Below are positions 4,205 through 61,970 of a stretch of DNA of 64,000 nt, in pieces. Both the position numbers and the translations under genes were made by a program. The notes beneath the pieces were generated by a model that made no database searches, was not told the origin of the DNA, and worked only from the letters and a program-made list of their open reading frames with translations. Numbering within the stretch: position 1 is the first letter of the stretch; each line of letters begins with the position of its first letter. The DNA comes from Saccostrea cucullata (Eukaryota): contig NW_026927380.1 of the NCBI RefSeq assembly GCF_032062105.1, positions 186,001 to 250,000 on the forward strand, given 5' to 3'.

Positions 4205-7200
4205 TCAAGTCCCAAAAAGTGGAATTGGAGTTAACATCGTACGAAAGCCTAGAGATATGTCCGCGAAACCATTCATCACTAGAGACCTATCCAAATCTGC
4301 AGTCACATGATCACAACAGCATGAGATGTCCAAGTGTCCATCTAAAGTCCAGTCACCAACCGTTTCCCTGGTATCACAGAATCGGTCCGGTCTCCCAAAG
4401 TCCAAAGTCTTCCCAGCCTCACAATGCTTACACCGTGTATCAGTTCGCCTTTGTTCATAGTCCTTTTGAGTCCATAGAGAATTGATCAGCCAGTTGCCTT
4501 GTGGTGTGGATACATTCTTACAGTTAATATTTTGTCCACTAAACAAACATGGACCTTTGGCACACACCATTTGATTTGAACTGGTTTGTGGAAGATCAGG
4601 TATCGTAAACAAAACAATGTCCTTGACCAAACTGAACAAATTCATTCCCTCGCCTTCTACGTTGGATGTGTCCTTTGTCTGTTCATTGTCCAAGCCGTTT
4701 CCAACCCCAGTAGAGTTACCATCTGAATTAGCAGACTTTTTAGCACCAGTTGTTTTTTCAGAGAGTACAGGATGTGACAAAGACAATATTGAGGGTAGAG
4801 TCAAGAGAGTCCATAATGACGAAAAAGCTCCGTCCAGCACCTTTGGTTTGTTTTCTTCAATTGTAACAGTTTCCATCTTTTCCTGAGTGATTTCCTGACT
4901 GGGACTAGACACAGGCACATTGTTCAAGGTCGGAAGCATGGAGTGCTCCTTAACGGGGAGGCCAATGGGGGTCAGAGTAGCCAGGGTAGACAGAGTTGTG
5001 GTGACCAGGAGGGTAGAACCCACCACGGTTAAAAGTCCAGCCACATAAGCTACCATTGACACTGCCAACATCTGGAAAAAAAGATTATGATTAATTTGGG
5101 GGACAAAATACTTAAAAGAACAATTTAAATGCCTTTGAAGTCAGTTATACACAAGACTCAGGTGTTAGAATTTTCCTCATCTATATTGACATAATTTTCC
5201 AGTTATTCTGGCATTGTCCCTTCAATCCTCATCAGGGGAGGAATCTAAGGCAACCTTCTACTTTTAAAATGCCCTGTCTATTTCAATTTTTTATGGAAAA
5301 CTTTGAGTCAGGGTGATTTAAATAATCCTGATTTTTAAGTCATTGCACACCAGAGCGTGTGTTTTGCAAAATTACAGAAATGCATAGAAAATATTTCCTT
5401 TGTCATAACTATCTCTACTGGGGTTTATGCTTACCTTGGGCACCAGAGCAGATAATCCTGTAAAGGTCTGTAGGAGTTGTGGGTCTTGGCTGATTGCCCA
5501 TAAATCTGTGTAGGAGAACCACCCTCTTTCAAGTCCCTGGTTAAGTGCAATCCTATAATAAAATGTACAGATTAATTATAAATCAATAAAGTTTTTCATC
5601 AGCAGATGATTTGTCTTTTCAGTTATTGTTAGTTACTTTCAAAAATGTGTTGAACTTTGACAAGAATATCTCCAAAAACATAGGTATAAATCAATATTAC
5701 AAAGCTCTTTTCTGTAAATGTTTTCAACTATCAGTAACTTACAGTAACTAGATTTACCATAACATATCAATGATTAAGAGACATTGGCACCCCAAAAATT
5801 TCTCTATCATTGTTTTGAAATATATATCTAGAAACAAAACTACAGAAACCAAATATATATCATCACAAGAACCTTGTCATTCTTTCAGAAGAGCTAGAAT
5901 ATAAATTATAATTATCTCATTTTTCACATTACATGTATATCAATCAAAAACACGGACCCCTAACTAGTGGTGACTAATAATTCAAAGAAGTAGCTCAAAA
6001 TATAATTTGCATTTTTATAAGTAAAAATAGATCAGAAAGCCTCAAATACAAACCGTCTTTCCACTTGTTGTAGCACCTGATAGAATTCTGTTTCATTTAC
6101 ATACAACTGCCAGTCCTACAACCAAAGGAAAAGAATATTTTATACACAAACATTTCCCTTATTTGTTCAACTAATTCAACTAAAAGAAAATATCTTCAGT
6201 AGGTAAGTTTTGCTTACAATTGCCGATAGGAATTTCCGTTCCATTTCATTGATGTCCTCGGTTTCCAGGTCTGCTGAGGCTGCCCATTCATCATTAAATA
6301 CTTCATCCTCAACACCTTCATCATACAGAAACTTGGAAGCCATCATCTACAAAATTTTGATTACAGTCAGTGTTTACTGTATTGAAAATAAGCCATATCC
6401 TCTACAAAATTTCCATTGAATATTGCATTGCAGGTTTGAACAATTGGTAAGATTCTGTTGTTGTCTCCCTTCCCTTGACAGCTAGAGTGCATTACAAGCA
6501 TTTAAACAAGGACCATCCTACATTATTTACCAGTGATTGGGAAGGGCTTGCGCCACGCGCCATAGTCGCAATGAAGTGAAAAATGGCGCATTAAATCAAT
6601 TAATCATGGCGCCAAGGTGCGCATTCCATTTTTAGCGATTTATATGAAAATTTTGTGTACGACTTTCTTTCTTGTTTTACTTTCGTTTTGAATGCAAAAT
6701 TTAAAACAATAAATCTCATTGGTTGATATGTCAAAAAGTACAAACGGTTCACACACATGAGGTACAAAATATTTTTTTAAATTGATTTGAGCTTATTATG
6801 TTAGATTCGTTCCTGTATTGTAATGTGATAAACGGGCAAACATAGTGCATTTAATAGGAACAATCTAGAGAAGATGTAAACATGGCAGGTAATTTGAATT
6901 GCGACAAAAACGTTGAAAATTAATTGGATTTTCGTATTTTTATGGATTATTTTTTGGGATAAAAGGCATAAGCAATCTCAAGAAGGTTTGTTTTGATTAT
7001 TTTGGTAGTTATTCCCAGTGCAAATCATTTTATATTCTTCAAAATGGTTGACATGCAAGAATGTACATTACAAGTACAATATACTGTGGTGAGGGCCTGT
7101 ACCGAGACACAGTTAGATTATTCTAACTAGAGGTACAATACTTCATTCATTTGTATGGTAGGGCTGTTCCCTTTCCAAAACTGTCGTAATTTTATCACAA

Positions 7201-9581: not shown

Positions 9582-12500
9582 ATGATGGCGGATAAAACAG
9601 TTGACATATCTCGTCTTCCAGAAGATGTCAGACAAAAACTTGAAGAGCTTGATATAGAGCTTGCAGAAGGTAACTCCATTATCTGATTGATTTCTATTGT
9701 TCGCAATGCTTTTTCATAGTTTATTGATGTTCATTTTGTGCTACTGTTTATACAAATTTACAGCCCAGCCAATCTTCTTTTTCACTAGAGAGCATAAAAT
9801 CAAATGAGAAAATTTGGGAATTGAAATGGCAGTGAATTTTTATGTTAAAATTTATAGATTTTTTTGTATTTTTATAGATTTGTTTACATTATGGTCACTT
9901 TTTAACATGTGAAAAGTCGCAAAAAATGTATGTCGGGTTTTAATGTCATACTTTAACAGTAATGCAGGCAACTTATTTGTTATGAGATCAAGAATAAATC
10001 ATTTGTCTTAATCATTCTTTTTAAGAAATACAAACAAAAATGTTATTCGATCCTTACACCTGAATCTCAATGTGTCACAAAAAATCAATTTATTGACCAC
10101 AGACATCATTGTTGCATAAATTGCATGTACTGATGGGTTTTTATTTATAGAGCAAGTTCCTGGCATGAAGTTGTCTAAAAGTTAAAGCTACTCACTTTTC
10201 AATTCTCTAATGATATTCTTAAAAGGAGGCTTTGTTTTGAGAATGAAATATCTGGTACGAAACATGACTTCTTTATAAACAGGTGTCCTCTTATGTGTTT
10301 TCACTACAAATGGGTTTAACTGTATAAATTATACATCATTGGTGAAAGCATTAAGTGTAGTTAGTTATACAATCATCAAGAGATTTAAAGAATAGATTGG
10401 AGAGAAAAAAACTGCATAGATTAACAATTACATGTACATTAGGCCAAAATAAAAAATATTAAAAGTTTTTATTACATTTTCATTTTTGGGGTGACACTAA
10501 AATTTTAAAGTCAACCAACAATATTTACAATACATCACAAGTGTACAGGATACCTTTACTTTATAAATCTTCATTACCAAACTTGCTCTGTAAACTGCAA
10601 ACATATCATTTTCTTGTTATTACATGAAATATGTTTGCATCCATTGAGGTTTCAATATAAAATTTTTTCTCAAAATAAAATACCTACCTACCCTAATAAA
10701 AATTTTCTTTTGGCCTTATAAAAGGGACACATGACATGTCATATCAATGCTCTCATTGCTCTGATATTAAATTATTTTTAAAACATAATAAAAATTTGGG
10801 ATAAATGAGAATATAACATATATAAGGAAAATGGATTAAAAGCATAGAATTTTTAGTTAATCAATTACTAAAATAATATTATTTCAAAGTAATCTCAATA
10901 CATGCAAAAATGCTTTAAAAACATCGATGTAACCTCAGATTTTGCCAGGAAATCAGATCAAGGCATGATTGATTTAGTTTGGAAGCAGAAAGTGTAGGTT
11001 AAAACATTATTGTGAGAAACATGGTTCTACTTTGTTGATTGCTCAAAAAACTTTGAAAATTAGTGGAGAATCCTCCTGCTGGCAAGTCATTGAAGAAAAA
11101 GAGAAACATTCATACAATAATTAGCATTATTAGTTTGTATAATTTGGAAAAGGGTATTTAAATACAACACAGATTTCCAAAATAATCTTTAGTTATAATT
11201 GATCTCTGTAGTTTGGTGCATCAATGCATTTTTATTTTTTGGATGTTCTACTGTGTGATTGCACACTTTGACAGGAGTTGTAAAAATCAGGGTTTAAGTG
11301 GATACAATCTGCATTATCCAGCAATTATAGTTGTTTTTGTGTCATTATGTTTTTTAAAATTTTGTCATTTTAAGATAATTATTCATAGTTTTAATGTGAG
11401 GGTTAGAAATAAACACACAATTGCTTTTAAAGGCCTATCTAAAGAAAGATTCCAAATTCTCATGAATTGGATCTTTGATATTGGTATGTTCTGATCATTA
11501 TTGACTATACAGGCACATTGTTTTATCCTTATAATGTGATCAGAACTAGTGTGATTCAGATGTACAGGGATGTAGGCATGCAGTATTCATCACCCACTGT
11601 CCATCTGTACACATCTGCTTGGAATGATGTTACTCAGTTTATGCAAATAAAGAATCATACTTTAAAACACATCACAAATTTCAGATGAATGTTAAAGACC
11701 AAGGATCATATGTATGGGCTATTTATGCATGGAAGCAATATTAGGTCATAAATTATTCATAATTAAAGGTTGAAAATCAATGTGGGAAAATTTTTATACT
11801 GTGTTGTTGTAGCTGTATAATAAGTAGGTCACCCAAAGTAAATAGAGTTGTGGCTGTAACCACAATATTTACAGAACTGTAGGACTACTGGTAGAATGTC
11901 ATGACTCATATCAAGTCAGGAGGAAAGTGGTCAGCATGTTATTTGCTCGAAATTTAAAAGGGTCCACGGCCACTTCGCACATACATAAAAATCCTCCTAC
12001 CACGAGATGAAAGATAATTTTTTTTTGTGTGTGTTGTCGGGGGCTAGGGTCAGGCAGGCACAAACTTTTTACCAGTTATAAAAATTCAGGAAATTAAATG
12101 GGAGAGCTAGAACTACTTGAGATCAATGAAGGCACGTAGTTACACAACACCGGCAAGAAATGAGAAACATATGACTAGGGCTGGGTATTACACGATATAC
12201 GATATTTTAAACTGTATTGCGATATGTATTGCAATATTTTCAATTGATAAAAATAGCATTTTCTTACTATATTTACTTTAAAATGCAGAATGAGTAACCA
12301 AACATGTTGATTTCAAAGATGTCTGAAATGTTACCACAAAACAACTTCTGACTTACTGTTTGGCTTAATAAAAACTTTCATCCAATCCATTAATATTGCC
12401 AATATATCGATATTACAAAATCGTATTGCGATACGATATTTTTTGTCATTGTATTGCAATATATTGAAATATCGATATTATTGCCCAGCCCTACATATGA

Positions 12501-15500
12501 CAAAGATGTCTAGCAGGGGCAAAAAATTCCAGTCACAAAGAATGGGCTGCTAATTCTGTAAAAGAGAGCTTGCTAATTTGTTTGAAGGAGAGACTGTCAA
12601 TACACCATTCAATGCATTCATCTTTCATCCTATTGTGTAAATCTGAGTACTCTGAATTTTAATTAAGTAGAATAAAACCATATTACATTATACATGCATA
12701 TGTATATTCTGTTTCTTGATCTATAAGGATACAGGTCTCTGATCTAATAAAGGATTTGAATGAAATACCATAAAGTTCAATGACATTATGTTAACTTATA
12801 ACTTTTAATTAAAAATTGTTACACAGACATATGTATGTATGTTTGGTGACAGTCATTTCTGCATGATTTTATCTCATGAAAGGGAGATATTTAAAAGGTT
12901 TAGGGATGTAAAGTGTAACAATTAGAAATACTGCATAAATTACATTCTGTGGATTAATTTAAGTAATTTTTCATAACAATATGCATACACATATCAGACA
13001 AATGTGTATATATAGACAAAGTTGGTCAATTGAAATCTCACTGAATATTTAACAATTGACCAACTTTGTCTATTTTTTCAATTGAATATTTAAATATGTA
13101 CATTCTGTATTCATAACATAGCATCATAACATGAAATGTATCATTTAAAGTATGGTTTATATACCTTAGGGTTATAAACACTTAACTTTGTTTTTGAACT
13201 GCTTTTTTAGTATCTCATTCCTCATCTCCCCCCCTCCCCACCTTTACATGAATCAGAATATTGATCTATAACTCACAGCTTTCTCTGATTAGGTCTAGAC
13301 AGGGATTACTGCAAGACAATATTTTGAGGGTTGTAAAAGTAATGATAAATATTATGACCACCAGTGAAGAACTGACATATATTTCTACACCAACAAAAAA
13401 TTCAACTCTGTATCTTTATTCTTCAAACCTATCATCATTCATTTGCATTGTTAAGCACAATTAACCTGGGAAAAAATGAATTATTGTAAAAGAGTTGCAT
13501 GGGGAATGTACTAAATGTTTCCTTAGAAACACATTTAAAGATTGACACGGTTTGAATTTGAGCTGTTAGGATGATACTTTGGAATGTTTCCTGGCCCTAG
13601 TCTTTCTTCCCATGTATCGAGGATAACATCATAATTCCGTTTGATAAACTATAAAATATGTTAATGGTCTGTGTGTCATAGAAAAGCCATCTGGTTTGTT
13701 TTAAAATATTTTCAAGAGAAATCCAGACTCTCTGCTTAAAGTTTCAGTTTATTTTATTCTGGAAGGCTGAGGGTGAAACATGAAAGGTATAATTATGAAA
13801 AGGAAAAAAATATCTGTAAAGGCTCTGCATTTATTTGTAAGTGGTATTGCAAAAAGTGTAGGTGTTTTTTCTAGGATTGCACTTTTTTGCAGATCATTAA
13901 TTTTTAATGGTGACTTTGTAAAGTATATATATATCTGTACACCTGGCAGCTATATTCAGATAAAGGTGTGAAAATTTGCCTTTTTCTCGATACAGAACAT
14001 TGTGAGAGATTTGTGGGATTGATCATCAGTGATGTGACATACATGTAGAAAGGTAGAAGACACTATAGAGACTGCATGACTTAACAGAGGGATTGGGTCA
14101 GGCAATCACTGACACACTATAATTCACTAACGAAGAAATTCATTAGCTTTGTTAACTAAGACAAAGATTTGTTTTGTATCTTTCAGGTGACATCACTCAG
14201 AAAGGCTATGAGAAGAAGAGGAGTCGTCTATTGGCAAACTATGTCGCTCACTCACCTGCAGGTAAACATCGCTAATTACGTACCTATTAATTAGGAATGA
14301 ATGTCTTTTACAGGCTTATAGTAAATGTCATGTTATTATATATTTCTGTTATTTTTAGGTAACATAATAGATTTTTTTTTCTCCAAATCGCCCATGTCTG
14401 AACTTCAGGGGGATATTAGGAAAAGAAATTAGTAGGGAAAAGTACAGAGAAGTTCATAAAGATAATTTTAGACAATATCCTTTAGTTTTCACCAATTCCT
14501 CCCATATCCCTACTTCACGCCTCCTCTAGGTCTTTCCCCTCTTGATTCACCTCAAATCTCCTCCTCTACCTAGGGATACATTCTACCCCTTTTGCCCTTT
14601 TCCTACACATCCTAGCCCTTACCCCTATTTTAATTTCTTCCCAATGCCTACTCATTCGTTCTACTTTGTTTTCTTACACATGCCTATATCACCTCAATTG
14701 TCATGTGTCTCTTCCCCTTTATCCCTATATTTAATCCAGCTGTTTTACTCTAATATCCCACCCATCATCTCATCTCATATTCCTATATCCCTCCCAAGGC
14801 TCCCATGTCATAATCATTCCACCTAGCTCCTTCTCCCCTCCACCTAACCTAACTAGCCACTCCTACCATCCTTTCTTCCCTGATCATATGTGACATCTTC
14901 AATCTTATTTTCTCTCCATCATTATTCCACACATCCTACCAATCTATGAATCTACCCCTTACTTGATAATCTCCCTAACCCCTCCCTCATCTCTCCACTT
15001 ATTTTTGTTTTTCTTGCTGATTTCTGCTGAGTGCATCATTAGATCTGTATTGAGATTTGAGAAATTCTGTCTGGTCAGAAGATAAGTATAAATGGGAGTT
15101 GACTGTTTGTTTTTGTGTATTGTAATGTAAACATTCCTAAACCTCACCAAGCAAAAGTTTGATAAGCTGCAGCCTGGATCTCGTCAGAACCCCCCTAATG
15201 GACTTACAGGCATGAGTCCCCATCTTACATGGTCAGGCTAATGAGTCAGAATTAATAATTAAGCACTGATTAAAGATTACGGCATGATTTTTCCATTATT
15301 TCAATACACAATATCTTGGTAAGATTTGCTGCATGGTTTACAGTGGTGTAACAAGGAGGTGGACAGAACCACATATGTGTTTAAGCCATGTAATTGAAAC
15401 AAGGCCTGGAGATTATTTTGTGGCCCTCCACTATTTACTTTGTTTAAAGATGCAAGATATGATCATGATGATAAGAGCTTCCTGCATCTTTGTTTTTTTT

Positions 15501-18500
15501 TTCCTCTCTTGTTGTAATGAAAAGAAAGGAAACTGCTAATTTCAGACATGGTGTTTTCTAAAAGTGTCTCTGAAAAGATAAGGTTCTTTTATACACGTTA
15601 TCTTGGAGGTTAAACAATTAGGATTTGAAATTAAATGGGATTCTATTGCGGGGAAGTGTTTGCGGTATTACGTAAATCAAGTTTTAATTTTTTTGTAATA
15701 AAAACTAACTTCTGAGGAATTGTTTGATTTTATCCGAGCAATGAACTCCCTCTGATGGTATACTGTTGGTGGCGGGGAGATTTATTTAGCATGTGTCGGT
15801 GTTTGCTGATGGCTATATGTAACATTTTCTCTCCGTGCTGTATATATTTTTTTAGCAAAGAAAATCCCAAGGTACTGCCATATTAATGAAGTTGTTAGAC
15901 TATATATTAGTGATTCTGTGATTTTTGGTGGGAGTTATGCATTTACATGAATTACATTAACATAATTTGAAAATTTACTCTGAAGGATGTGAGTACTTCT
16001 TTATAAGTGATTTCAGTAATTGATATGGATGATACAGATCTCTGATGATGGCTGAACCTCCATTAATTTTGTGTCTTAGTTTGTTTACGTCAACATGTAT
16101 TTTGGGGGGCTGAAGCTTCTACCGCAAGGTCAGTGACACGTCTAATCAATATTTCGTTTATATCAGGATGCTCTGTAATTTGGTCATTCACTTTATTATG
16201 AGGATTTAAGAAGCAAATCAGCCTCTTTGAAAGCATCCAGTAAGAAATATACAAGAAGTGGTGGTAGTCCACTTGATAATTTTTTTCTCCCATTAAATGT
16301 TTTAATGGTTTAGAACCTGTTACCCCTGCAATCTAACACACACTTCGCTTTCCCCTGTGGGATGCATGAACTTGCAGTACTGTTTTATCCTATGTAGTAC
16401 AAAGGCTGTTGATGCATGGCACAAATTCTGCTTCCTTTTTGTATCCGTGCTTTGACTTCTAATCTTTTCCAGGAAAAACCAGATTTACTCTTGTAAATGT
16501 TTTTTTAAGGGTAGGAAGCTGGTATATACACATGTATGATACAGATTATGTGTTGCATGACTTTCTTTTTTCATGGTTTTAGTATCAGGATCAATATAAG
16601 ATTATTTTACTTATATCAACACTTTTAGATTTAAATGCTTTATTACTGTAGATGGAACCTTTTGTGTTAGATATAGTCCACTCTACAAGCTTTCTACTAC
16701 ATATTTCATGCATATAAAGGTTCACACACCCCATATATTGTCCAGAAGGAACAGAATTTATTGGATTATGATCACCTGCCCATAATATGCACCTGTACGA
16801 TCTCTCTGTAGTCTGTAGTTCACCTGTTGATATTATGACAGATTATGGGGTAGTCTGTAGTCACTCTGCCATGAACCAGGGACTTGTCAGGTGAATCAGA
16901 TGACATACTAGGATGTACTGTCCAAACTGACCAAGTTTTGTGACTGCAGTGTATTAAGACATTTTTTTCTGGCCCTAGCTCTGTTAAAATTAGTAAAACC
17001 ATTGTTTATTCTTTAGATCTTTGTGAAGACAGTTATGAATACATGCATATGGTCTGCAAGTTGTTGCATATCTTATGATGGTACTTGATTATATTTTTTC
17101 TTGCGGGTAAGGGAGGGGGGAGGTATATATATGCATATGATCTACCAATTGTTGCATATTGTATTTAGATACAAATATATACTGCTTTTATTTAGGAGTG
17201 AAAAGTTTCAATTTTTCCTTCTTGGCATCTATGGAATGTAGTATATGCTAGCTATTAATAAATAGTTTTGGCCTGTTGTCCCATTAGTAAAAAACACAAC
17301 TCCAGACCTGTGATGATTACTTAACAGAGTGTCTGGGAGATAGATAAAGTTGTGTGTGCAGATATTTTGCCAGACTGAGAGATACCATGCACTATAACTG
17401 GGCTTACTGAATCATCTTATTGCATAATATTTTCATTCAGATTTTTGTTTAGAAAAAAATACCTCATAATGCAACTTCAAATTTATATTGTGCACAACTG
17501 AAAATTGATCCACCAGGGACCGTGGACAGATCTTTGGATTATTTGTATGGTAATAAACCAAATATGAAGAAGGAGAGCCACATAACGTGCATAAAGAAAA
17601 ACATCACCTCAGCCAGTGAATGGTTGCAGTGTGTTTTCACACTTTATTATCGATTATCATCATAAATAAACATCAACCTCTTAAACTCTCTATAAAAACT
17701 TCAGCGGATTTGATTAAAGGTTATCCACATGGTATCTATTACGCCTCTCTCCGAGACGAGACCTGTGAAAGGCTCTATTTAGTGCAGCAGACTTTCTTGA
17801 GATTTTTGATGAAGGAACCTGGATTAGCGATTGTTGATTTTATCATGTTGCTCTCATTATGTAATTATTTTCAGAGCCAAGTGCACCTAGCCCCCAGACT
17901 GCCGCGCAGAGAAAGGCTCACCGTAGGCTCACAAGGGAAGACAACCGCTACCATTCAGGTACGCCAGTTTACCTTGAGTTTGAAAATTTTTCATGAAATT
18001 ATTCATCATGATCATAATTAAAAATGAAAAGTCTCAGTGCCTTAAAAATACTGATAATTATTGTGAAATTTTTATTTATCATTTATTTTATGTAATTAGC
18101 AATTAGACTAATCAATGTATGTCTTTAAAGCCAATAGGAAAATAATGAGAGCAAATTTTTTTTATTATTCAAATTTACATGAATTTCGTGTCCCAAAGCC
18201 TCTGAGAGAGACTTCATTATTGTTTTACATAAATTTTACATGCCAAAAATGTATGACTGTTGACCTATTACTGGCAAATTTTTTGACCTAGTTTAGACAA
18301 CACTTGTTATTCTGGTATAATTAGATACAAAAATTGCTCACTACTACATTTCCTTTGAAGTAAATGTGGAAAGAACCATTCTGAAGCCTGAACAACTGGC
18401 CTAATACTTGGGAATCACATTTATTAATATAAGAAAGTCATGCCATAAATCTCTCGTTAAGGACCTAAAATTCATGAAAAAAATTACATAACTGAATTAT

Positions 18501-21500
18501 CAATGCGAATTTTTACCTTGTTTGATATTTTTTATTTCCCCCAAACACCATGTGTGTTTACGTTTTGTATTTTTTGGCACTTGCTCTGAAGTCTGTGGTT
18601 TTGAGACCACAGACGGAAGCCTCACCTTGCATTCCATTTTAAATTGATAATCATAACATCAAAATTAGCATAGGCAACACATTTTAACCTACAAACATAA
18701 CACACATGTAAGAGTTACACGGTATAGGGAAACCATGTTTTTGAATGTTACAGAAATCAGAACGGAGGCAGTGATGCAGGCACTGGCTCTACACAACAAG
18801 AAACCTGTGGTTCCACTGCCATCCAAACGGACATCTGTCCAGTATCCGGGTCAACAGCAGAGAGCCAGAGAAAGACACGGTATTGTACTCTTTATATCCT
18901 TGTTGAGAGAAAAAGGATTGGCTAATGAATCCTGTTTAATTTTTTTTTAAAGAATTTATTGAGAAAAAAGATGGGTTTTCTTGGCTTAATGATTCTTGTT
19001 TAAACTTTCTTTTGAAGAATTTGTTGAGAGAAAAAGGGATAGGTTATCTTAGCTTAATGAATCTTCTTTAATCTTTCAAGAATATTGTGTAGGAGTTGAT
19101 CAAAAATCTTTTATAAAAAATAATTGATCTTGGTGAGACTTGTAGTAGGAATACTCAGTGATGAAAATTTTTGCCTTACAGATTCATCATCAGATGACGA
19201 CGACAGTATTTTTGGTGATGACCAACACAGAGATTTTCAGCGAGGGGGTCGATATCGTGACAGTGGGGCTAGCTCCTCCTCGTACTCTGATGCCAGTGCC
19301 TCTCCCCATCACGGGGGTCGGGGAGGGGACAGTCGACCCCACAGTGCAGCCTATGCCATCCCTGGGAATACCTCCAGACATGCATTGGCTGACGTGTTAC
19401 AGAATGCCAGGCATTGTAAGTTTTACTCATTTGTCAACAAATAGCTTTTATTGTGGTTTAATGTGTGATAAATTTTCATTCTTACCTACAACTTATTAGT
19501 GTTCACTCAACAGAAAAAACTCTGAGTTCCAAAATTTTAAAAGTAAAGTATGTGTTCTGAAGAATCACATTTTAGTGGGATCAAATTTTTGTGGTTTGAT
19601 AAAAACTGGTTTGTGAGAATTTGATTTTTGGTTGAAAAATTGCAAGCAGCAGAAGTAAACATGATATTGCTGTTTGAAATTTTTACATTTCATGGAAGAT
19701 GTGAATTTGTGGGTCTCCTTGTACCATGAAAACAACCAAAGTTACCCCCCCCCCCAAAAAAAAATTTTTGACTTCACAGTGTTTAAGTATTATATAAAGT
19801 GTTTTACATTAAAAATACTCTGCTCTGTGTTTTTCCTAGCTCAGCCAATCTCCCAGCCACCTGATGTAACCAACAATGCTAAGAGCACCAGACAAGCTGA
19901 TAGGGTTGGCCATTACGCTCCATCACACATATCATCTGTCAGACTGAACAATTCAGGAAACCTCTCAGGCCTTCAGGATGATGGTAACTACACAACCATA
20001 GAAAAAATTCAAATTGTTTCAAAAGAGAGGACTCTTAAAGTGAATATTAAATGTGATGAATAAGGCAGAATTTTGATTCATTTTTTTTTGGAAATTTCAG
20101 AAATTCGACATCAGGGGAAGGTCTCAGCTAAGATACAGCAGTTATTGAATACATTAAAGGTAACAACCCACAAAAGTATTAATACATGTAGGAATAATGT
20201 GTGTGATTTTGTTAATGTAAATCACTTTTTATTCGCGAGAACTTTATTTTCACGTAATTACGCGAGACAGTGTGCTCACAAAAATTTAATTATGCGTTTA
20301 ATAGTATTCTTTAGCAATAACCACAATTCGTGAAAATTTTACTGCTACATTAAAGGTAACGTCCATCCACTAAAATAAGGTGTTGGGCATAATGTGTGTG
20401 ATTTTGTAATTGACTTAAATAAGAATTAATGCTGCTTTCTACCCTTGAAAAATATTTCATTTATAATGCTATAATGGTATTTCTCAATGTTTTTTTAGAG
20501 ACCCAAAAGAAAACCATTACCAGAGTTCTTTGTTGAAGAAGATGATGCTCTTGAAAGTAAGGAGAATGGATTTCATTCATACCATTATCTTAATTGATTC
20601 TTTGCTACATTTATTTACTGCTTTCATTTTGTTTGAATTTAATCACCACACACATTTTTAAATGCATTTTCACTTGCAATAATGGGGCTTGAATAAAATG
20701 GAAATAAAAAAAGATGGGGAAAAAAATTTCTCTGTATATAGTAGTTAAAACTAATAAAAAAGCTGAAAGCTAATGCAGGAACTGTTTTATTTGTAGCACC
20801 AGCACCTGATCCCAATGCACCAAAACCAGAAGGCAGTGTCATGTCCCCATTTCCTGGAGAACAACTTGTGGTAAGAGTTTTTGAGCAGTTGAATATTTTT
20901 TTGTTCTATGGAATGAATATGAGGAAATTTGAACTTGATTATTGAGATGTGCAGTTAAACGTAATAATATATAGAGTGTACTTTATTATGGTACAGTTTT
21001 TCAGAGCTCATTGATATAGCTAAAAATCTATGTTCAATTCTATTAGTCCTATGAAGTCCATATTAAATTGAATTTTTTTTTCAATTAATGCTTTTAAAGC
21101 TCTCCTTCATGTAAAGACAAATCTATGCATACATATATACTTGTAGTAAAATAATAAAACATAGTATTTCATAATTAATTTCTATATATTTGTCAATATA
21201 ATCTATGTTCTACCTGTATTTTTATGTATACAATAAAACGTCAGTTTTATTTTGATGTTTGTTTCATCATCCCTTTATAGATACCAACAGGTTTGCCTCG
21301 TAATTTAGAGTCAGCATTACAAAGATATGGATCATCTAGTTACAAAGCTAATGCTGTGACTGTCCTAGACCAGAACGGAAAACCATCCCTCACACTTACA
21401 TATGGTAGGTCATTTAGAGTCAGCATTACTGTATGGTATGTGGCATAAATAGCAAGCATGGTTAAGGTCAAGATCTAGTAAATGAAAGGTGCCTACAGAT

Positions 21501-24500
21501 TTATCAACTTGAGAAATAAATTCCTTTGTTGATGCTTTACAACTTTAGCTTGGTCACATAACCTTGCATAATTTGTAGGTAAACTGCAAAACTGTATTTT
21601 AAACTGTCATTTTCAATGAAAAATTAAGAAAACCAGTTATGAATATGGGAGTTTTTTTCGTATTCGGCAAAGGAAATGTATCCAGATTGCCTACAGTCTC
21701 TCAGAAAACGGTAATTACAATGTAGTACGTTTATGGCCTCTTCTGTAAATCAGTATCAAATTTAATATAGGTATCCGGTTTACTTTTCAGATGATTTCAA
21801 ATTGAATGACATGAAAAATTTTCACATAATTTCTAAAATAAATAAGTTGAAATTGATTATTCATAATGGATCTAGCACCAAAAAATTAGTCTCAAGTTAT
21901 TTAAAGTTCAACTGTGAAACAAAAAAAAACTTTGATAAGGATTCAATATAGTGAAGTTTAAAACTTAAGAAAAAGTAGATGAGTCTTAAAAATTACTTCA
22001 ACTTATCCATGGAATTTGAGATATCGGTGTTGAGGTACTCAAATTCAACTGTAGTAATAGTATGTAACTTACTGAAACCTACATTTATGCTTACCACTGA
22101 CACAATCATTGTTAACTGCTTATGATTTGTAACTTAGACAGCATCTGTCCCATAAAAATGAGTTTAAAAAATCATTAACTAAACTATCATTCTGAAATTG
22201 TTTAGATACACATTTACAGGCACCTTTACTTATCAACAATAAATCTTTTCCACAATAAAAAGCCAAATATGACAAAGGCTTTATTGATTTTAGTTATGTA
22301 TTATTTGCTGGTACAATGATGTGTTTTAATTAATTTTTTTGCAGGAAAACTGCTGGCCAGAACCCAGAAAATAGCTTACAACATGTTACAGAAAACAGGT
22401 CATAAAGGGGAAGGTGGAATTAAACCCAATGACAGGGTAGGTGTTACATTGGTATTAGACATTAGATGCTACTAAATGGTTTGCTTGAGTCACCCATTTA
22501 TATTTATTTAACCTTCTTGATGTGAATTCCATATTTAGGCAAATAAAATGTGATGTTAAGACCTTGTCTGTCCCCTTTTGATAAAAAGATGCTATTGTTG
22601 TGCAGTAATATACGCAACCGCAAATGTGAACATGGTGATGTTGCATGAACTCTTAGATCTTGTGTATTTTGTCTGTTCTGGAATGACTGATTTGATTTAT
22701 TCAAAATATATGCTTAATTTATATAGCCTGGTAATTTTATTTTTTCCATTTCAAAATTCACTGACCAATTAAGTCTATGATTGGTATTAATGGTATGTGT
22801 TTTACAAGTTACTTAGTATACAGTGTTTCATTACTTTTTTCAGGTGGCTCTCGTTTATCCAAACAATGACCCTATATCTTTTATCAGTGGATTTTATGGC
22901 TGTTTACAAGCAGGTGTAGTGCCTGTACCTGTAGAAGTCCCATCGTCCAGAAGGGTAAGTCTTTCTATCAGAAGGTCTATCTGTGAAACTTTGTATTTCC
23001 AGCCAAAATGTTAATTCTTAAAAGGAAAATTATTTTTACATTTATTCAAGAAATTACCAAAGCTATTCTTAGAGAAATCTGAAAGATTATTAAAGAGACA
23101 CATTTGCATGTACTTATCTTGGTTTACTTAAAAATAAGTGAAACTTTTCCCCTTTAAAGGATGCAGGAGGGCAGGGTATAGGGTTTTTATTGGGCAGTCT
23201 CAATGTAAAATGGGCCCTCACCTCAGAGGCGTGTCACAAAAGTCTGGCCAAGACGGCCAGTGGAGAAGTCGTACAGTTTAAAGGTGAGTTGTTTTCATTA
23301 CAAAAGATATGTCCAGTCACTAATTGTTAAAATTTTTATTGAGGAGTAGAAAGCTCTAACTTAAAAAAAAAAATTATCAAGTATAGTTTGAATGATAAAA
23401 AATGCATTTACTCTGTGTATTTGTTTCGATGGATGAGTTTTGGATTTAAGGTTGGCCCAAGCTGAGCTGGTTGGTCACTGATAGTTTAAACAAGTCTTCA
23501 AAAGACTGGCAACCCCCTCCTAAACAGTCAGAGGATATTCCTGCCTATGTAGAGGTAGGATTCAGAGTAATTTACCAATGAGGGATACAAAGTACATTAA
23601 AATTCATTTGGAATCATTTTGTGCATGTGATTAAACCATAAATTTGTCGGATTGTCTTGTGGTTAACCGATTAGCAATTTTGTAAATGATTGCCATCCAT
23701 AGTGCAAATGAATCTTTTTTTCAGATTATCAATTTCTTATATGTAAAGGCAATATATTGAATATTTCAGTACACACAAAGTAAGGAGGGAAGTACAGTGG
23801 GTGTGACAGTGACTAGAAATGCCATGTTGTGTCACGCTAGGACCCTCACACTAGCCTCTAATTACACAGAGGGTGAGTCAGGAAATCCTGTGATTTTCCT
23901 TGTGTTATGGCACTTTAAGGGCCAAAAATAAATGTATGACTTGTAGCCATCTGAAATGGAAAAAAATGAAAGGACACTATACCTGTAATTATGAAGTTAT
24001 GAAAGGAAAAAATTTCAAAAAAGGTATTCTCTTTCCAGGTGAAGTTATGGTCTGTGTTTTAGATTTTAAAAGAGATGTGGGTCTCTGGCATGGTATATTA
24101 TGTGTAAGTATAAGAAAATATAATTAAGCTTAGAGGGACAAAAAACTTGTCATCATCTTAAGTTGTCTTTAATTTGGTACCTTTATGTTCATTGAAAAGT
24201 TTATTTATTTACATGTATTTATTTTTGCTGATTTCAGAGTGTGTTTAATGGCATGCATGTGATATTTATTCCTTATTCCTTGATGAAAGTTGATCCAGCC
24301 TCATGGATGAAAATGATCACCAAATACAAAGGTATCATACTAAAACATGTATGATTAATATGATTGCAGTTCGTTTCAGTTCCTGAACTGTTTCGTAAAG
24401 GAGTACTACTATTTTTACAAGACTAGCAGCAAAAAAAGTTTTTAAAAAAAAAACTTATGCATATATTACATGCACATGTATAAAAAAAGAATATTAATCT

Positions 24501-27500
24501 TTTAATTGCAAAAAATCAAGCTCATTTTCAAAACTGTTTTATTTTGACAGCTTCAATAGCTATAGTGAAGTCCCGGGATATGCACTGGGGACTTCTAGCT
24601 CAGAAGGATCACAAGGACATTAGTTTTGCCACACTGAGGCTTTTGTTAGTAGCGGATGGAGCTAATCCATGTAAGTCTGACAAAGGCAATGTTGTGATGT
24701 AATGGAGATATATGTCAACCTTTAAAGATAGTTTCAGCACAGTGTACATGTATTATAGAGATTATTATTGATGGATTCAGTTAAATAATTCTTGCGTATA
24801 TTAGTATTTCTATGGATTATATAAAGCAATCACCACAATTCGTGAAAATTTTGTCGCGCTTATAAAAAGGCAATGACTACAGTAAGGTGTGAAAAAATAG
24901 TAAGTTATAAATCACCTGATTTTTAAAAAATTTTTTTTTGATGGGAAAGGAACTCTGTGATAGGGGAGATAATTTTAAGTTGATACTTCACTGATTTCCT
25001 CTTTAGCAATGATTAGTCCCAAACTTTGCAATTCCATCTTATTTTTGCGAATATTTTGCAAAGCCTGTCGCAAATGGACGGTTTCAAGAGTTTATTGCAC
25101 CATTAAAATAAAGGCGAGTAATTTGATTTCGTGTGTTTTGAAATTTGATAATTAATTCCATGCTTATATTTAGGAATCTACAGTATTGAATCTGCTTTAA
25201 TTTTATTTACATTGTATATAAAAAGACAATATCTTAGATAAAAAGACATTTTAAGATGGTCATTTATGCTATAAGAAAACATGGTTGTTCAAATTTTGAC
25301 AAAACATTCTGTTTATTTTTAAAGGGTCTTTAACTTCCTGTGATGCATTCCTGAACTTATTCCAAAGTAAAGGATTGAAACCAGAGGCCATTTGTCCTTG
25401 TGCCAGCTCCTCAGAGGCATTAACTGTCTCAATTAGAAGGTAAAAGACTTAAAGTCTCTAAAAAGTTTACCCTTACTTTAGAGGCAAAAAAAGCATTTTT
25501 CTCAGTTAATGTGTATAAATGAGCCTTACAGAGTTTGAATTTTTTTCAGGCCGGGGCGGTCAAGTGCTAGTGCGACTGGTCGAGGCATCTTATCCATGCA
25601 GGGTCTGAGTCACGGTGTGGTGAGAGTGGACACAGAAAATAGTCTGACCTCCCTCACCCTACAGGACTGTGGACAAGTCATGCCTGGAGGTAGGAAATCA
25701 GTTATTCTGTTAATCAGAAACAAAGCATAAAACTGCAGATTGTAAAATGATTTGAGAAGCAATATCTTATTAACTTAAAAATGCCCCCTAGGTCTTTTTC
25801 AATTGAGGTGATTAAAATTTTCAACAATTTGAAGAAAGTTAAAATGTCTATTATCAAATTTCTAGTGGAAAATGAATAATTTAGCATATACTTAAGGTAA
25901 TTCTACTATACGAGGTGAAACATGTATATTTGCTTATATCTTATATATTTGTAAGGAATTTAAAAGAATTTCTCCTCATTACTCAAATTAGAAATGGTAA
26001 ACTGTGTTTGAAAACTAGCAGGGACTATAAATATGGCATATGAAAATATCTTCTTTTCTGCCTCTCAAAATTATAATAGAACAATGAATTCAGTTATAAT
26101 TTTTACACAATCGAAGACTTGGAGAAATTTTCAAATATAAGTTAAATTAATAATGAGGGACTAAACTTTCAAAATATATCAAATTATTCTGATTTTTCAA
26201 ACAAACTAGAACTGCTTTTGTTTCAAAGTGCAGATTTCAAAAAATATACTCTCTCAAAACTTTTTGTTTTTTTCTACACTTTTATTATATTGAAAATAAG
26301 AAAAAGTTAAATATAGGAAGCATATGAAAATAACTAAAATATCCTAAAAAATTAAGAAAACCTGAGAAAATTCGGATTAGGCAATATCCAGTTAATATCA
26401 AGCTATAGACCCGATATAGTATTATGTTTTTATGCAAAAAGAGCAATCTTTAAAGTTTTGAAATAGAAGTAGGTATCACATGATTAGCAACAATATTTTT
26501 TTATTCTTAATGTTAAGGAAAAAGAAATGTGACCTTCTAATATGTCAAATTCAATTTCACTGATACTATCACTTACTGATAGATTCTTGAAAATTTCATT
26601 AATTTTTGAATATTAGAAATGTGAGAGGAATCCTACCTTAAAGTAAAGTAAGACATTATTTTAGTGGTACTTTGTATTTATTTTTCAAAAGATTTTTTGA
26701 AGTTAAAATATGACTTTAAATATTATAAAAAGAATACCAAAATAACCGCCCCCTTATCGCAATTTTCTAAGTGCCTGGGGCGGTTAATAGGGATTATACG
26801 GTATCTTAGATCATACAGTTGAATATCTTTAATTTGAACAGGGATATCTCTAATACAATAGATTTGTCAAATTCAGTTGGAAGTCCCAGCTACTCATTCT
26901 TTTGTTTGTTTTGGGGGCTCCCTTCAGTTCTAGATAATAAACTTTGACCATATTTACTGTATATTTCTAAAATTATTTCTCAGGAAGCCTTTGGCACATG
27001 TCAGGAAATATAAAATTTTCTTTGTTTTTTAGTCACAATCAAGAGCTGTTATTTAAATCTGTGATTGCTTTCTGTTTCTTGGTTTTGTTTCCCAAAGTCA
27101 TCACTCAAATAGAGTATGTGTGTTGTTTACCCCTTTCAATTGTGAGTTGCATAAAATGAGATAAGGATGGGTATCCCCAAAAATTTAGTATCGCAATGCA
27201 ACATGATTTTTTCCCAGTAAAATGAAATACTGTAATTTTCAAAAATATTTATGGATTATGATGTTGATTTGTTTTAGGTTCAACCACAACACCCAGATGG
27301 AACAGTGATTACTGACAAGAAATATGTCAGGACAGGTCTCCTAGGGTTCCTGGGTCCAGTAAGCCTTTACAAAAACCATGATAAGTGATTGTTCAATTTC
27401 ACATTGTGGCATTCTTTTGATATATAAAAACTGTAAAATCTAATACTGTCTAATTTTTATGGAACTGCCATGGGTATCAATTGTGCCCATTATTAGCAGA

Positions 27501-42022: not shown

Positions 42023-43935
42023 TCACGCCTCTAAGAATGACACATAGTCTGTTAGAACTGATAACTGCTGCTCACTTAAAAGTTCAGGATCCTTGGCAGG
42101 CACTGCAAGAAGTAAATCATAATTTTAAAAATAATAATAGTTTTCTGACATTTGTTGAAAAAAAATAATTAAACTGAAATTACAACAGTGAATATTGGTA
42201 AGTGATCATATAAATGTCACAATAATCATTAGAAAAATGAATTTATTAAAGAATGCTCTTACCTAGCTTTTTAGGTTTAATATACTTAGTTGCAGAGTCA
42301 TATGTCCACCCTTCTTGGGTTGCCGCTGTATATGACAAAAAGAATTACTCAGATTAAACCAAAACAAAGTTTCATTTACAAGCTACCTGTATAAGCATAT
42401 CAAGCATAGCAGTTAAGCTCTTAAGAATCTTAAGTCTCATGTTTTCTTCTCTTGTGTTAATCACTTTATTGTTAATGTGAAAAATTCCCCATCAGCACCA
42501 ATGTCAGTAACAAGATAAAACATACTGGGAAAATTCAGAAGGGCAAACCTTGTATAGCCTCATTTGAAGGCATTCCCATAAAAACAGCCCACTCTTCAGC
42601 ATTGATGGAACTGTAGGCTTTAGATACTAGTCTCATGGCTCTTTCTCTTGTGGCAGCTTTCAAGAAGAGAGAGAAATGACAGATTTGAATGCCAAGACTT
42701 TGTTAAAATGATCAAGGATAATTTTCCAGATACAATTTATAGTTGAATATCTTGTTCAAAAAATGAGTGTGTATTATTTTACCTTTCACTGCCTCCATTA
42801 TTTGTAGCACACTTTCTGACCATTCTTTCTTTAATGCTTCATAGATTCCTGGGTAGTCCCTCAACCACAACTTCTGTCCCACTGCCCAAATATGACCTGT
42901 TTCAGGACTCGACTACAAGACAAGGTTTAATAATTAAAAGATGTTTAGTCTTGTATGTCAAGTATGAGCAGCCTAAGATTGGGACTTCTTCTTGGCAAAA
43001 ATTTTAAGGAAACTGACTTACGCTCTTGACTGACTGTGGTATTCTTTTCCATAAAAATTTTGCATTGCACCTGGAATTGAAGACATTAAAATGACATAAA
43101 ATGAAAATAATGTAATAATCATAAAAGCCATAGTAGACCTTCTTACAATATGACAAAATCTATACAAGGTCCTTTCACAATAACTGTGGTAGTACTCTTT
43201 TGCAGGGCAAAATGATATATTTTGGTGAAATATGACATAATTTAAGCAATTGCTTAATAGGGGCCCAGAGATAGAGGCCTATAAATTAATTATCTATCAA
43301 TATTAATTAAAATTATCTTAAATTACATTATCTATCAACAAAATCTTCACCAAAAGTTATTAAATCGCCCTGCAAAAGAGTACTACTGCAGTTATTGTGA
43401 GGGGCTAATACTATATATCAAGAAAAATCATTAGAAATATTATGTCTGTCTGTTTTAAATCATAATCTTACATGTCATTGTGAAGAAGGTACAGGGCTAA
43501 CAGCTGATTATACACCTGAGGTGATGTCCCTCCTCCTGCAGACTGAAATGCAATGCACAAAATCATGAACATTTATCTTGGACCAGAAACCAAAGGTATA
43601 AAACAAGATGTTGTTTATGCGGACTTCAGATTATTCCATTATTTAATCACTGTTGTACAAAAATTTTTTACGAACATCAAGTGTTAATTCTATTCGAATA
43701 AAAAGAGTAAATATATGTTCACACACACCCATTAAAAATAAACAAATGAAGAGAAAATTCGAGTTAACTGAATTTCGCTTCATTACTGGACAATACTGAA
43801 GTTATATCGTTTTATGTATTCAATAAAAATGCTGCAATTAAATTATCACTGATGTCTGTCTTGGCACATTACCTCGAGTTCTTGTTGTTCTAATTCGATT
43901 TGTAGCTTTTGATAATCAACATTTTCTTTGGCCAT
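42023..43935 (-). CDS. COPS8: COP9 signalosome complex subunit 8, 7 coding exons
   Basis: Exons 43873-43935, 43472-43542, 43022-43070, 42783-42912, 42549-42656, 42263-42325 and 42023-42102 splice in phase. Product: MAKENVDYQKLQIELEQQELESAGGGTSPQVYNQLLALYLLHNDMCNAKFLWKRIPQSVKS...IWAVGQKLWLRDYPGIY...ATRERAMRLVSKAYSSI...EQQLSVLTDYVSFLEA*, matching CSN8 hallmarks. Confidence 0.95.
43175..43400. mobile_element. MITE with ~34-bp inverted repeats in COPS8 intron 2
   Basis: TCACAATAACTGTGGTAGTACTCTTTTGCAGGGC / GCCCTGCAAAAGAGTACTACTGCAGTTATTGTGA. Confidence 0.75.
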
Positions 43936-47103: not shown

Positions 47104-48198
47104 ATGGGAATATTTAAAGAAGCTATAGCAAGAAATCTGAGGCACCCAAAAAGTGGACCGGCAGGCTGGTTCGTCAGCATAAGCTTCCCAAGTTCTTGTT
47201 CAGATCAATTTCATACATCTAATATTCAAATACATGTACATGTACTTATTATGACGATTCACTACGCAATTTATTCATTTTTAGAAATACGTTTTTGAAG
47301 AAAAAAATAAAAACTTGGAGAAAAACGCTGTCAACGTGTGCAACATTTCTAAAGATGATATTGTTCTAGAAGTGGGATTTGGTCCGGGGTTTGGACTCGA
47401 AGAGGCACATACTAAAATAAAAGGTTATTAATTTAATTATAAATGATAAGATTATTGTTATAAATGTAAACTCATCAAAAAGAGAAACTGGGAGAGATTA
47501 ACACTTGCAGGATACATTTAAAATTTAAAACTTTCATTTCTTTATTCCTTCTTTATTCCTATAATGTCATATTATAAATTTTGAATTTACCGGGTGGCAG
47601 TAAATACGAAATTTACAACATGACAACTTGTAAATTTTGTATTTACTGTCATCTGGTAAATTCGAAATTTACAGCATGACACTATCCTACAAGTTCAGTA
47701 AGAACTAGTTATATTTACCTAAATACCCCCGTATTATACCTTTTAAAATATATATTGTGTTTTATCTTTACAGATGGAAAGGGTAAGGTCTATGGAGTCG
47801 AGATCTCCCAAGCAATGTTAAAAAAGGCGGGACGTTTACTCCAGACTGAGATAAACTCAGGAAAAGTTGAACTAATACTGGCAAATGTCGCAAAACTGCC
47901 TTTCGAATCCGACATGTTTGATCACGTGTTTCACTGCAACTGTTACTATTTTTGGGATGATCAGGTTGCGTGTGCTGGAGAATTGCATAGAGTAATGAAA
48001 CAAAATGCAAACATGGTAGCTGTACTGAACGAACAGGGTCTAAAAGTAGCGGAAGAAGCGGGAGTCTTAAAATACGGAAACACAGACCCACATAGATACA
48101 TGGACTCTTTAAAGAAAGCTGGATTTCAGGATATAGATTTCAAGAAACTGAAAAGTGCAAAGGGTCATCCATTTAGTGCAATTTTTGCTCGAAAATGA
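47104..48198 (+). CDS. Class I SAM-dependent methyltransferase (small, Methyltransf_11/UbiE-like fold), 3 coding exons
   Basis: Exons 47104-~47178, 47285-47423 and 47774-48198. Motif I VLEVGFGPGFG, post-I VYGVEIS, motif II LPFESDMFDHVF, then NCYYFW and ELHRVMK. The first donor site is ambiguous. Confidence 0.85.
47565..47681. repeat. ~115-bp imperfect hairpin in methyltransferase intron 2
   Basis: TGTCAT..TAAATTTTGAATTTACCGGGTGGCAGTAAATACGAAATTTACAA is mirrored by TTGTAAATTTTGTATTTACTGTCATCTGGTAAATTCGAAATTTA..ATGACA. Confidence 0.75.
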
Positions 48199-61800: not shown

Positions 61801-61970
61801 CATTTGCAAAGACAGGCATAGATATTATGATTGATACTGTTCCTCAGAAAATATTTGGTATAGTGGATTTCTTTTACATTTGTGTCAACTGTGGGAAGAT
61901 ATTCTGGGAAGGTCCGCACATGAGTACAGCTTGTGAACAGTTTGCTCATGTTATGAACCTCCAGACTTGA
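49826..61970 (+). CDS. EXD3: Exonuclease mut-7 homolog (EXD3/Nibbler): DEDDy 3'-5' exonuclease plus Mut7-C domain, ~20 coding exons
   Basis: Exons splice in phase from 49826-49925 to 61635-61970. ExoI IGVDSEWKP (54759-54820), ExoII GYGFDADL, GLSELVRQCLGKPLNKGEQMSNWEKRPL, ExoIII QYAALDA. Mut7-C: VVDSMLQGLGQQLRGCGVD, FSRCQVCN, FYICVNCGKIFWEGPH. The first two exons are less certain. Confidence 0.93.
50379..50698 (-). mobile_element. Hairpin-plus-body element, reverse orientation (tentatively Crypton-like)
   Basis: Second IR TTTTGTTATACCCCTT (50379-50394) / AAGGAGTATAACAAAA (50552-50567). TGACGTCA at 50509. Hairpin core 50589-50679. Confidence 0.65.
51506..51685. repeat. Minisatellite, 5 units of ~37-40 bp
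   Basis: GCAGTATTGAACTG.....ATTTTAAGAAA.TT repeated. Confidence 0.8.
52339..52699 (+). mobile_element. Hairpin-plus-body element (tentatively Crypton-like non-autonomous)
   Basis: Hairpin at 52339-52492. Second IR ATAATTTAATTT (52493-52504) / AAATTAAATTAT (52688-52699). TGACGTAA and TGACGTAG motifs. AACCAATCAAA...TGTTACAAG. Confidence 0.7.
52715..52928. repeat. Minisatellite of ~28-bp units
   Basis: ATCTCAGACATGTCT.ATATTCTCA unit repeated several times with divergence. Confidence 0.7.
55207..56952 (-). mobile_element. Hairpin-plus-body element (reverse orientation) interrupted by a Tc1/mariner-type MITE
   Basis: Hairpin at 56796-56952. Removing the insert at 55612-56793 plus one TA restores GAATGTAAATATA, the exact inverse of TATATTTACATTC at 55207-55219. 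Confidence 0.65.
55612..56793. mobile_element. Tc1/mariner (pogo/Tigger-like) non-autonomous element, ~1.18 kb
   Basis: TA|CGGTAAACTTCGTTATCTCGACATCG ... CGATGTCGAGATACCGAAGTTTACCTG|TA, with many subterminal GTCGA(G/C)ATA motifs. Confidence 0.85.
57758..58072 (+). mobile_element. tRNA-derived SINE with CORE-like central domain and L2/CR1-type 3' tail
   Basis: A box TAGTCTAGTGG and B-box-like GAGTTTGAATCC. Central TGTGTCCTTGGGAAAGGCACTTTAC...TTTCCTCA...TGTAAAATGGGTA resembles the CORE domain. Tail TGTAAAGTGCTTTGAG...AAAGGCGCTATATAAA is followed by (ATT)n. Confidence 0.85.
58073..58385 (+). mobile_element. Helentron/HINE (DINE-1-like) element inserted in the SINE (ATT)n tail
   Basis: 5' TTATACCCCC subTIR with nearby partial inverse GGGTATA. 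(GTCY)n-like CCGTCTGTACGTCCATCCGTCTGT. 3' GGGGGTAT subTIR, then hairpin GTGAGC...GCTCAC and a CTAGTT end. Confidence 0.8.
60733..61566. mobile_element. hAT-type MITE (834 bp) in the last EXD3 intron
   Basis: TIR TAGGGGTGGGACGATA / TATCGTCCCACCCCTA, exact 8-bp TSD ATATAAAT, and subterminal CGATAC/GTATCG motifs. Confidence 0.9.

What the first reader, a model, noticed from the sequence alone, without database searches (positions are those of the whole stretch)
25690..27277. A conserved DIP2 coding exon appears to be absent, breaking the reading frame
Seen: exon 25550-25689 ends ...LQDCGQVMPG+G (phase 1), but the next recognisable exon 27278-27358 (VQPQHPDGTVITDKKYVRTGLLGFLGP) starts in phase 0. 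Direct joining gives a TGA at 27313-27315. Established: DIP2 proteins have ~45 residues here, including the LCKTDEVGEICV...YxGL segment of the first adenylation-like domain. I could not find it by eye on either strand of this intron, which instead holds a Kolobok-like element and what looks like a lone transposon end (GGCGGTTAATAGGGATTATACGGTA, ~26759-26783). All other exons are intact and in phase. Inference: a recent TE-associated deletion (null allele in this haplotype), an assembly error, or, less likely, a displaced or trans-spliced exon.
Basis: partly seen in the sequence, partly recalled or inferred. Interest (0 to 1): 0.7.

Follow-up and report, generated by a model that had tools for sequence, protein, structure and literature searches.

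The report
Oyster DIP2 exon lost, haplotypes blended
One conserved coding exon of an oyster lipid-regulating gene (DIP2) is absent from this genome assembly and the young transposons beside the gap are riddled with tiny deletions, which likely marks a spot where a broken and an intact copy of the gene were blended into one sequence: probably an ordinary hidden broken allele or an assembly error, not new gene biology.

Summary
Confirmed: exon 21 of 41 of the single oyster DIP2 gene (137 nt, 46 aa, phase 1 to 0) is absent. The other 40 exons are intact (10 differences in 1,525 aa from the nearest homologue). Direct joining gives TGA at 27313-27315. No remnant lies in the window, and four queries missed it in the assembly while controls hit. 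A relative's RNA-type contig carries it. The 'lone transposon end' is wrong: it is the right end (26779-26803) of a MITE split by the Kolobok-like element. New: both elements are young yet carry about 30 deletion-only gaps without microhomology, as does an intron-1 MITE. A toy long-read consensus reproduces this pattern when two haplotypes are collapsed. It erased the exon only when the transposon-bearing haplotype really lacked it (26 of 88, against 0 of 224). Best reading (0.55): a heterozygous null allele blended with a wild-type haplotype. Pure assembly loss: 0.27. No reads of this animal were available. Three look-ups found no earlier scan note of this pattern.

The parts
9582..37349 (+). 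DIP2 gene (DMAP1-binding domain + two FAAL-like domains), 40 of 41 coding exons present
   Evidence: Pfam domains of P0133; single copy in G000
25550..25689 (+). exon 20, ends in phase 1 (GT donor at 25690)
25690..27277 (+). fused intron lacking the 137-nt exon 21; the breakpoint lies somewhere in 25699-27062
   Evidence: relative's contig aligns to 25698 and again from about 27063
25757..25895 (.). left part of TA-flanked MITE B, left terminal repeat eroded; 9 deletions, 0 insertions against family consensus
25896..26637 (.). Kolobok-like non-autonomous element A (family 915 bp, here 742 bp) in the TTAA of B (TTAA 25892-25895 and 26638-26641); 26 deletions of 1-27 nt, 0-1 insertions, about 5% substitutions
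26814..26960 (.). older small repeat C (about 180-bp family), one internal gap of about 40 nt
27063..27155 (+). intron sequence shared with relatives' DNA contigs, lying downstream of the missing exon
   Evidence: tables 2, 5, 8
27156..27225 (.). 70-bp left fragment of a ~410-bp repeat D, absent from relatives' contigs
27278..27358 (+). exon 22, phase 0, holds RTGLLGF; premature TGA at 27313-27315 if joined directly to exon 20
12176..12493 (.). second deletion-riddled young MITE, in DIP2 intron 1 (318 of 408 bp; 10 deletions of 2 nt or more, 0 insertions, 3.5% substitutions)

Best explanation
The 137-nt exon 21 of DIP2 is absent from this assembly, and the locus is likely a collapsed consensus of two alleles: one that carries the young nested transposons and likely lacks the exon (a predicted null allele), and one wild-type allele that likely has the exon but not the transposons. 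Shown: the exon is absent, the frame breaks, the rest of the gene is intact and single-copy, and the transposons carry deletion-only gaps. Inferred: reads of the transposon-free allele were aligned across the insertion and punched scattered gaps into the consensus, while the backbone allele lacked the exon. Inferred from established knowledge: the exon-less mRNA stops at codon 724, far upstream of the last junction, so it would be degraded by nonsense-mediated decay or give a protein that breaks off inside the catalytic first adenylation-like domain; the animal would live on the other allele. How the deletion arose is not shown.
For: (1) Exon not found in G000 by two 45-aa peptides, a 30-nt pattern with 2 mismatches, or full-length P0006 (35 exon hits, none at aa 724-760); a 46-aa control exon was found. 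(2) The loss is not old: 10 aa differences in 1,525 from P0133; 16 of 17 listed exon differences to relatives are third-position. (3) Element A has 22 deletions of 2 nt or more and 0 insertions, the most of 75 copies measured; 25 of 27 young copies have 3 or fewer; it has only 3 private substitutions away from gaps, against a mean of 7.2 in 31 young copies. Gradual decay does not fit. (4) Gaps lack microhomology (0.6 vs 0.94 by chance). Gap sizes in 4 riddled copies match simulated collapsed consensus (KS p=0.17); those of the other 71 copies do not (p=3e-6). (5) Toy consensus: riddled transposon plus no exon trace in 26 of 88 null/wild-type runs (11 of 12 at 8:8 coverage with noisy reads), 0 of 224 runs with the exon on both alleles, 0 of 14 homozygous-null runs. 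(6) DIP2 and a gene 35 kb away are single-copy although the assembly holds haplotig-like pairs elsewhere (2 pairs among 138 loci). (7) Hemizygous transposon insertions are common in oysters (3-13% of the genome; 10.64898/2026.02.10.705023, section 15).
Against: No reads of this individual or of a proven conspecific were found: best word share 0.11. The simulation is my own toy: unknown real assembler, backbone always the transposon-bearing allele, back-translated exon, stand-in introns, successive rounds not independent; 62 of 88 null runs did not give the pattern. A layout-stage error was not modelled, and missing exons are among the commonest false gene losses in assemblies (PMC9516821, passages). 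Two or three young elements in this one gene are riddled against 2 of 27 young A copies genome-wide, which a local biological process would also explain. No second allele is visible in the assembly.
Confidence: 0.55

Rival explanations
1. Pure assembly loss: both alleles carry the exon, and structural differences between them made the assembler drop it.
For: The gap sits beside a tract that looks like a consensus artefact. In simulation, gaps spill into shared flanks and damage the exon when insertions are staggered (score down to 66 of 274). Missing exons are a frequent false loss (PMC9516821, passages). Racon-type polishing mixes alleles and has hotspots (10.1101/2021.07.02.450803, passages). 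The gene is otherwise under purifying selection.
Against: In 224 simulated consensuses from six arrangements with the exon on both alleles it always left a detectable trace; the window has none.
Confidence: 0.27
2. The sequence is real as written: a local process whittles young insertions in these introns by microhomology-free small deletions, and one larger deletion removed the exon.
For: Riddling recurs in one gene (intron 1 MITE, B, A) and clusters near another riddled copy (L132). No read data contradict it.
Against: 22 deletions against 3-8 private substitutions, few 1-bp gaps (18% vs 50%) and less microhomology than in other copies (0.50 vs 0.99) fit no repair pathway I recall, and a simple consensus model reproduces all three. 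Searches listed no paper on such a process in bivalves; I saw listings only.
Confidence: 0.12
3. The exon was moved elsewhere and is trans-spliced, or lies on unassembled DNA.
For: The assembly is fragmented (23,869 contigs), so absence is not proven.
Against: Four queries found nothing. Relatives keep the exon in cis: a 1,037-nt DNA contig bridges both flanking exons with about 628 letters between, and X5 joins the exon's end to exon 22.
Confidence: 0.03
4. An open 137-nt AG...GT stretch at 27005-27141 serves as a replacement exon and restores the frame.
For: Same length and phases as the lost exon, no stop; top-scoring of 33 open candidates.
Against: No similarity to the lost peptide. Such a stretch occurs in 7.7% of 300 shuffles and 20 of 80 window tiles. 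It overlaps ordinary intron shared with relatives. No RNA joint used it among the joints shown for relatives (69 joints were not shown).
Confidence: 0.02

Closest known systems
DIP2 family (Disco-interacting protein 2; DMAP1-binding + FLD1 + FLD2), nearest P0133, Saccostrea echinata DIP2C-like
   Same: 99.3% identical over 1,525 aa, same exon frames. Adenylation by FLD1 is needed for function in yeast (PMC9342972, passages).
   Different: 46 aa of FLD1 are absent; they align with the GEIGEVWVKG...GYW stretch of a solved FAAL-type domain (7r7g), the A6 motif by recall.
Hemizygous structural variants and recessive load of oysters (10.64898/2026.02.10.705023; PMC5804265)
   Same: Sub-kb to kb indels between homologues, about half or more transposon-related; high recessive load.
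   Different: Here the variant would remove a coding exon of a single-copy conserved gene, and heterozygosity is inferred, not read-verified.
False gene loss, 'missing exon' class (PMC9516821), and polishing artefacts at heterozygous sites (10.1101/2021.07.02.450803)
   Same: Exon without any hit in the assembly; allele mixing by consensus tools.
   Different: In the passages I read neither describes deletion-only riddling of hemizygous transposons, and this exon is not GC-rich or beside an N gap (0 N in window).
Kolobok-type non-autonomous element (A) and pogo/Tc2-like MITE (B); labels recalled, from no call
   Same: A: TTAA duplication, GG...CC ends with terminal repeats. B: TA-flanked, CCGTA...TACGG terminal repeats.
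   Different: No transposase in either; superfamily not tested.

Membership tests
DIP2 | DMAP1-binding domain plus tandem FAAL-like domains | tested here: met
   Pfam on P0133; window matches P0133 at 99.3%
DIP2 | continuous reading frame through FLD1 | tested here: not met
   137 nt absent; stop at codon 724
heterozygous null allele | exon absent from one allele | tested here: inconclusive
   absent from assembly; allele-level reads not available
heterozygous null allele | second, intact allele in the same animal | not testable with these tools
   only inferred from gap signature and simulation
heterozygous null allele | rest of gene not decayed | tested here: met
   38 of 38 other junctions GT-AG and in frame, no stops
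false gene loss (missing exon) | exon present in all raw reads of the individual | not testable with these tools
   no run of this individual found
transposon-mediated deletion | truncated or solo element end at the breakpoint | tested here: inconclusive
   A and B keep both ends; B's left repeat is eroded like the rest of the tract; breakpoint not pinned within 25699-27062
Kolobok superfamily (features recalled) | TTAA target duplication and purine...pyrimidine termini with terminal repeats | tested here: met
   13 copies and the window copy
Kolobok superfamily (features recalled) | Kolobok transposase in an autonomous partner | not tested
   element is non-coding; no partner sought
trans-spliced or displaced exon | exon with splice sites elsewhere in the genome | tested here: not met
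   not found with four queries; assembly may be incomplete

The most novel reading that the evidence does not exclude
The small gaps are real: oysters have a locus-level process that strips young transposon insertions in the introns of some genes by dozens of microhomology-free small deletions before point mutations build up, and here it also took out a conserved exon.
Probability: 0.1. Interest if true: 0.75.

Novelty: new member of a known kind. Interest (0 to 1): 0.22.

Why it matters
As most likely read, it is one more hidden null allele or false exon loss in a very heterozygous genome: low biological surprise. The practical point is the signature. Young transposon copies with deletion-only, microhomology-free gaps likely flag loci where two alleles were blended, so gene-loss calls and transposon age or deletion-rate estimates there should not be trusted without reads. 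If the gaps proved real, they would be an undescribed fast route of genome shrinkage.

Tried and rejected
Exon remnant in the intron: a TGGGGGCT match near 26912-26921 is the best local hit but is not above chance and sits in repeat C. Lone-end model: rejected. Chimeric B element from two copies (recombination deleting the exon): both halves meet at one TTAA with matching duplication and have similar substitution levels (10% left, with many gaps; 6% right); not needed, not excluded. Microhomology-mediated repair as source of the gaps: no enrichment. Transition/transversion ratio did not separate riddled from clean copies (p=0.78). X5 as proof of the same species: it is 82 of 82 identical over 27276-27357, but 4 of 30 loose letters running into the next exon differ from the window, so it counts as a close relative or conspecific, and its RNA label is a guess. 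An alignment could not be used to search the whole assembly, so sensitivity there rests on single peptides and one pattern. In-frame skipping exists only by dropping more exons, including the RTGLLGF exon (exon 20 to 29173, or exon 19 to 28036), so it would not rescue function. Back-to-back A copies in L103 are 85% alike, so not a fold-back read chimera. Of 90 A copies sampled, 16 with under 500 aligned bases were dropped before counts; the sample needs an intact left end. Paper searches and scan look-ups gave no description of the riddled-copy signature; supplements were not read.

Full report
The observation. The window is G000:C9517:186001-250000, in a 1.17-Gb assembly of 23,869 contigs. 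Exon 25550-25689 matches oyster DIP2C-like proteins; the nearest held is Saccostrea echinata P0124/P0133. Mapping P0133 gives 40 coding exons from 9582 to 37349, with 38 of 38 other junctions GT-AG and in frame and 10 differences in 1,525 residues. Exactly 137 nt (aa 712-757) are missing. Direct joining stops at TGA 27313-27315 after 723 aa. All 76 of 136 held proteins that have both anchors keep the segment. It lies in the first adenylation-like domain and aligns with a conserved stretch of a solved FAAL-type domain just before RTGDLGF. FLD1 adenylation is needed for yeast DIP2 function (PMC9342972, passages).

Is the exon anywhere? Not in the window: profile HMM best 3.7 bits; a deletion-tolerant profile scores at background, with power for copies up to roughly 40% deleted. 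Not found in the assembly with two peptides, a 30-nt pattern or the full protein, which gave 35 exon hits, all on C9517 and none at aa 724-760, under a stricter first look with 30 of 37 candidates scored. A 46-aa control exon was found. Relatives have it in cis. DNA contig X4 record 9 bridges 25565-25698 and 27237-27500 with about 628 letters between, where the window has 1,538. RNA-type contig X5 matches 27276-27357 at 82 of 82, and its loose letters encode the end of the missing exon as in P0124. X5 differs at 4 of 30 letters further on, so it is a close relative or conspecific, not proven the same species. No run held more than 0.11 of the words, so no reads of this animal were seen.

What fills the intron. 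After 68 unique bases comes MITE B (family about 381 bp), split at its internal TTAA by Kolobok-like element A (family 915 bp); then an older repeat C, about 200 unique bases (27063-27155 shared with relatives) and a 70-bp fragment of repeat D that relatives lack. The superfamily labels are recalled. The breakpoint can only be placed within 25699-27062.

The unexpected part. Against its family consensus the window's A copy has about 5% substitutions but 26 deletions of 1-27 nt and 0-1 insertions; B's left part has 9 deletions and none inserted; B's right part has one. I sampled 90 A copies in contig order by their left end; 74 had at least 500 aligned bases. The window copy is the most riddled (22 gaps of 2 nt or more). 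Among 27 young copies 25 have 3 or fewer and 2 have 13 and 17. It has 3 private substitutions away from gaps against a mean of 7.2, so it is young. Gaps show no microhomology. A MITE in intron 1 shows the same: 10 deletions, none inserted, while 9 best-hit copies have no deletion. A third element in intron 10 is less clear (6 gaps against 3, pairwise).

Mechanism. I wrote a toy Racon-like consensus (unit-cost read alignment, 500-base windows, partial-order graph, heaviest path). A hemizygous insertion under mixed reads gives scattered, mostly deletion-type gaps, and none arise when both alleles are the same (0 of 14). Gap sizes and microhomology of the 4 riddled copies match the simulation (KS p=0.17; 0.50 vs 0.44) and those of the other 71 do not (p=3e-6; 0.99). 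With the exon on both alleles, in six arrangements, it was never erased (0 of 224; lowest score 66 against background under 40). With the exon missing from the transposon-bearing allele, the observed pattern (at least 70% of the transposon kept, at least 10 gaps, no exon trace) arose in 26 of 88 (4 of 28, 14 of 42, 8 of 18), and in 11 of 12 at equal coverage with noisy reads. By the same measure the real locus keeps 78% with 29 gaps. Limits: unknown real assembler, backbone always the transposon allele, stand-in introns, dependent rounds, no layout errors.

Verdict. Most likely (0.55) a real exon-deletion allele, blended with a wild-type allele. Its transcript would stop at codon 724 and, by established knowledge, be a target of nonsense-mediated decay. 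In-frame skips also drop the RTGLLGF exon. Oysters carry 3-13% hemizygous DNA, much of it transposon-related (10.64898/2026.02.10.705023; abstract, outline and section 15 read) and a high recessive load (PMC5804265, passages), so this is ordinary. Pure assembly loss stays at 0.27: missing exons are a frequent false loss (PMC9516821, passages) and polishing mixes alleles (10.1101/2021.07.02.450803, passages). That the small gaps are real biology gets about 0.1 and would be notable. An open 137-nt stretch at 27005-27141 with the right phases is within chance. Searches (listings only) showed no paper on the riddled-copy signature; supplied background. No supplements were read.

Noticed in passing
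window 12176-12493: Young 408-bp MITE in DIP2 intron 1 with both ends but 10 deletions and no insertion: a second riddled copy in the same gene.
   Followed up: yes
L089 (G000:C1730:156209-157509), L044 (C102:22872-25893), L071 (C1037:333313-336334): Other A copies with 17, 13 and 8 small deletions; in L044 most cluster within about 220 bp. Neighbouring repeats near L089 also look deletion-biased.
   Followed up: partly
window 27005-27141: Open 137-nt AG...GT stretch with the same length and phases as the lost exon, no homology; within chance.
   Followed up: yes
window 27690-27817: This exon shows 8 listed third-position differences from relatives' reads, more than its neighbours (1-5 listed each); protein unchanged.
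   Followed up: no
L024:1393-1800: Another B copy carries a different ~400-bp insertion at about the same internal site as A in the window; the internal TTAA may be a repeated target.
   Followed up: no
L103 (G000:C2277:4190-10190): Two A copies back to back sharing one TTAA, 85% alike, amid further inverted repeats.
   Followed up: partly
window 21462-21903: TTAA-started repeat in DIP2 intron 10, 6 gaps against 3 in a pairwise match; not polarised.
   Followed up: partly
L140/L141 and L012/L117: Pairs 97-98% identical over 1.3-2.1 kb including flanks: likely haplotigs kept apart in this assembly.
   Followed up: partly
window 4208-6346 (-), 42538-42702 (-), 47680-48195 (+), 50851-61967 (+): Open frames of neighbouring genes; by recall only, cyclin-domain, COP9-subunit, methyltransferase and exonuclease-like. 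Their exon completeness was not checked.
   Followed up: no
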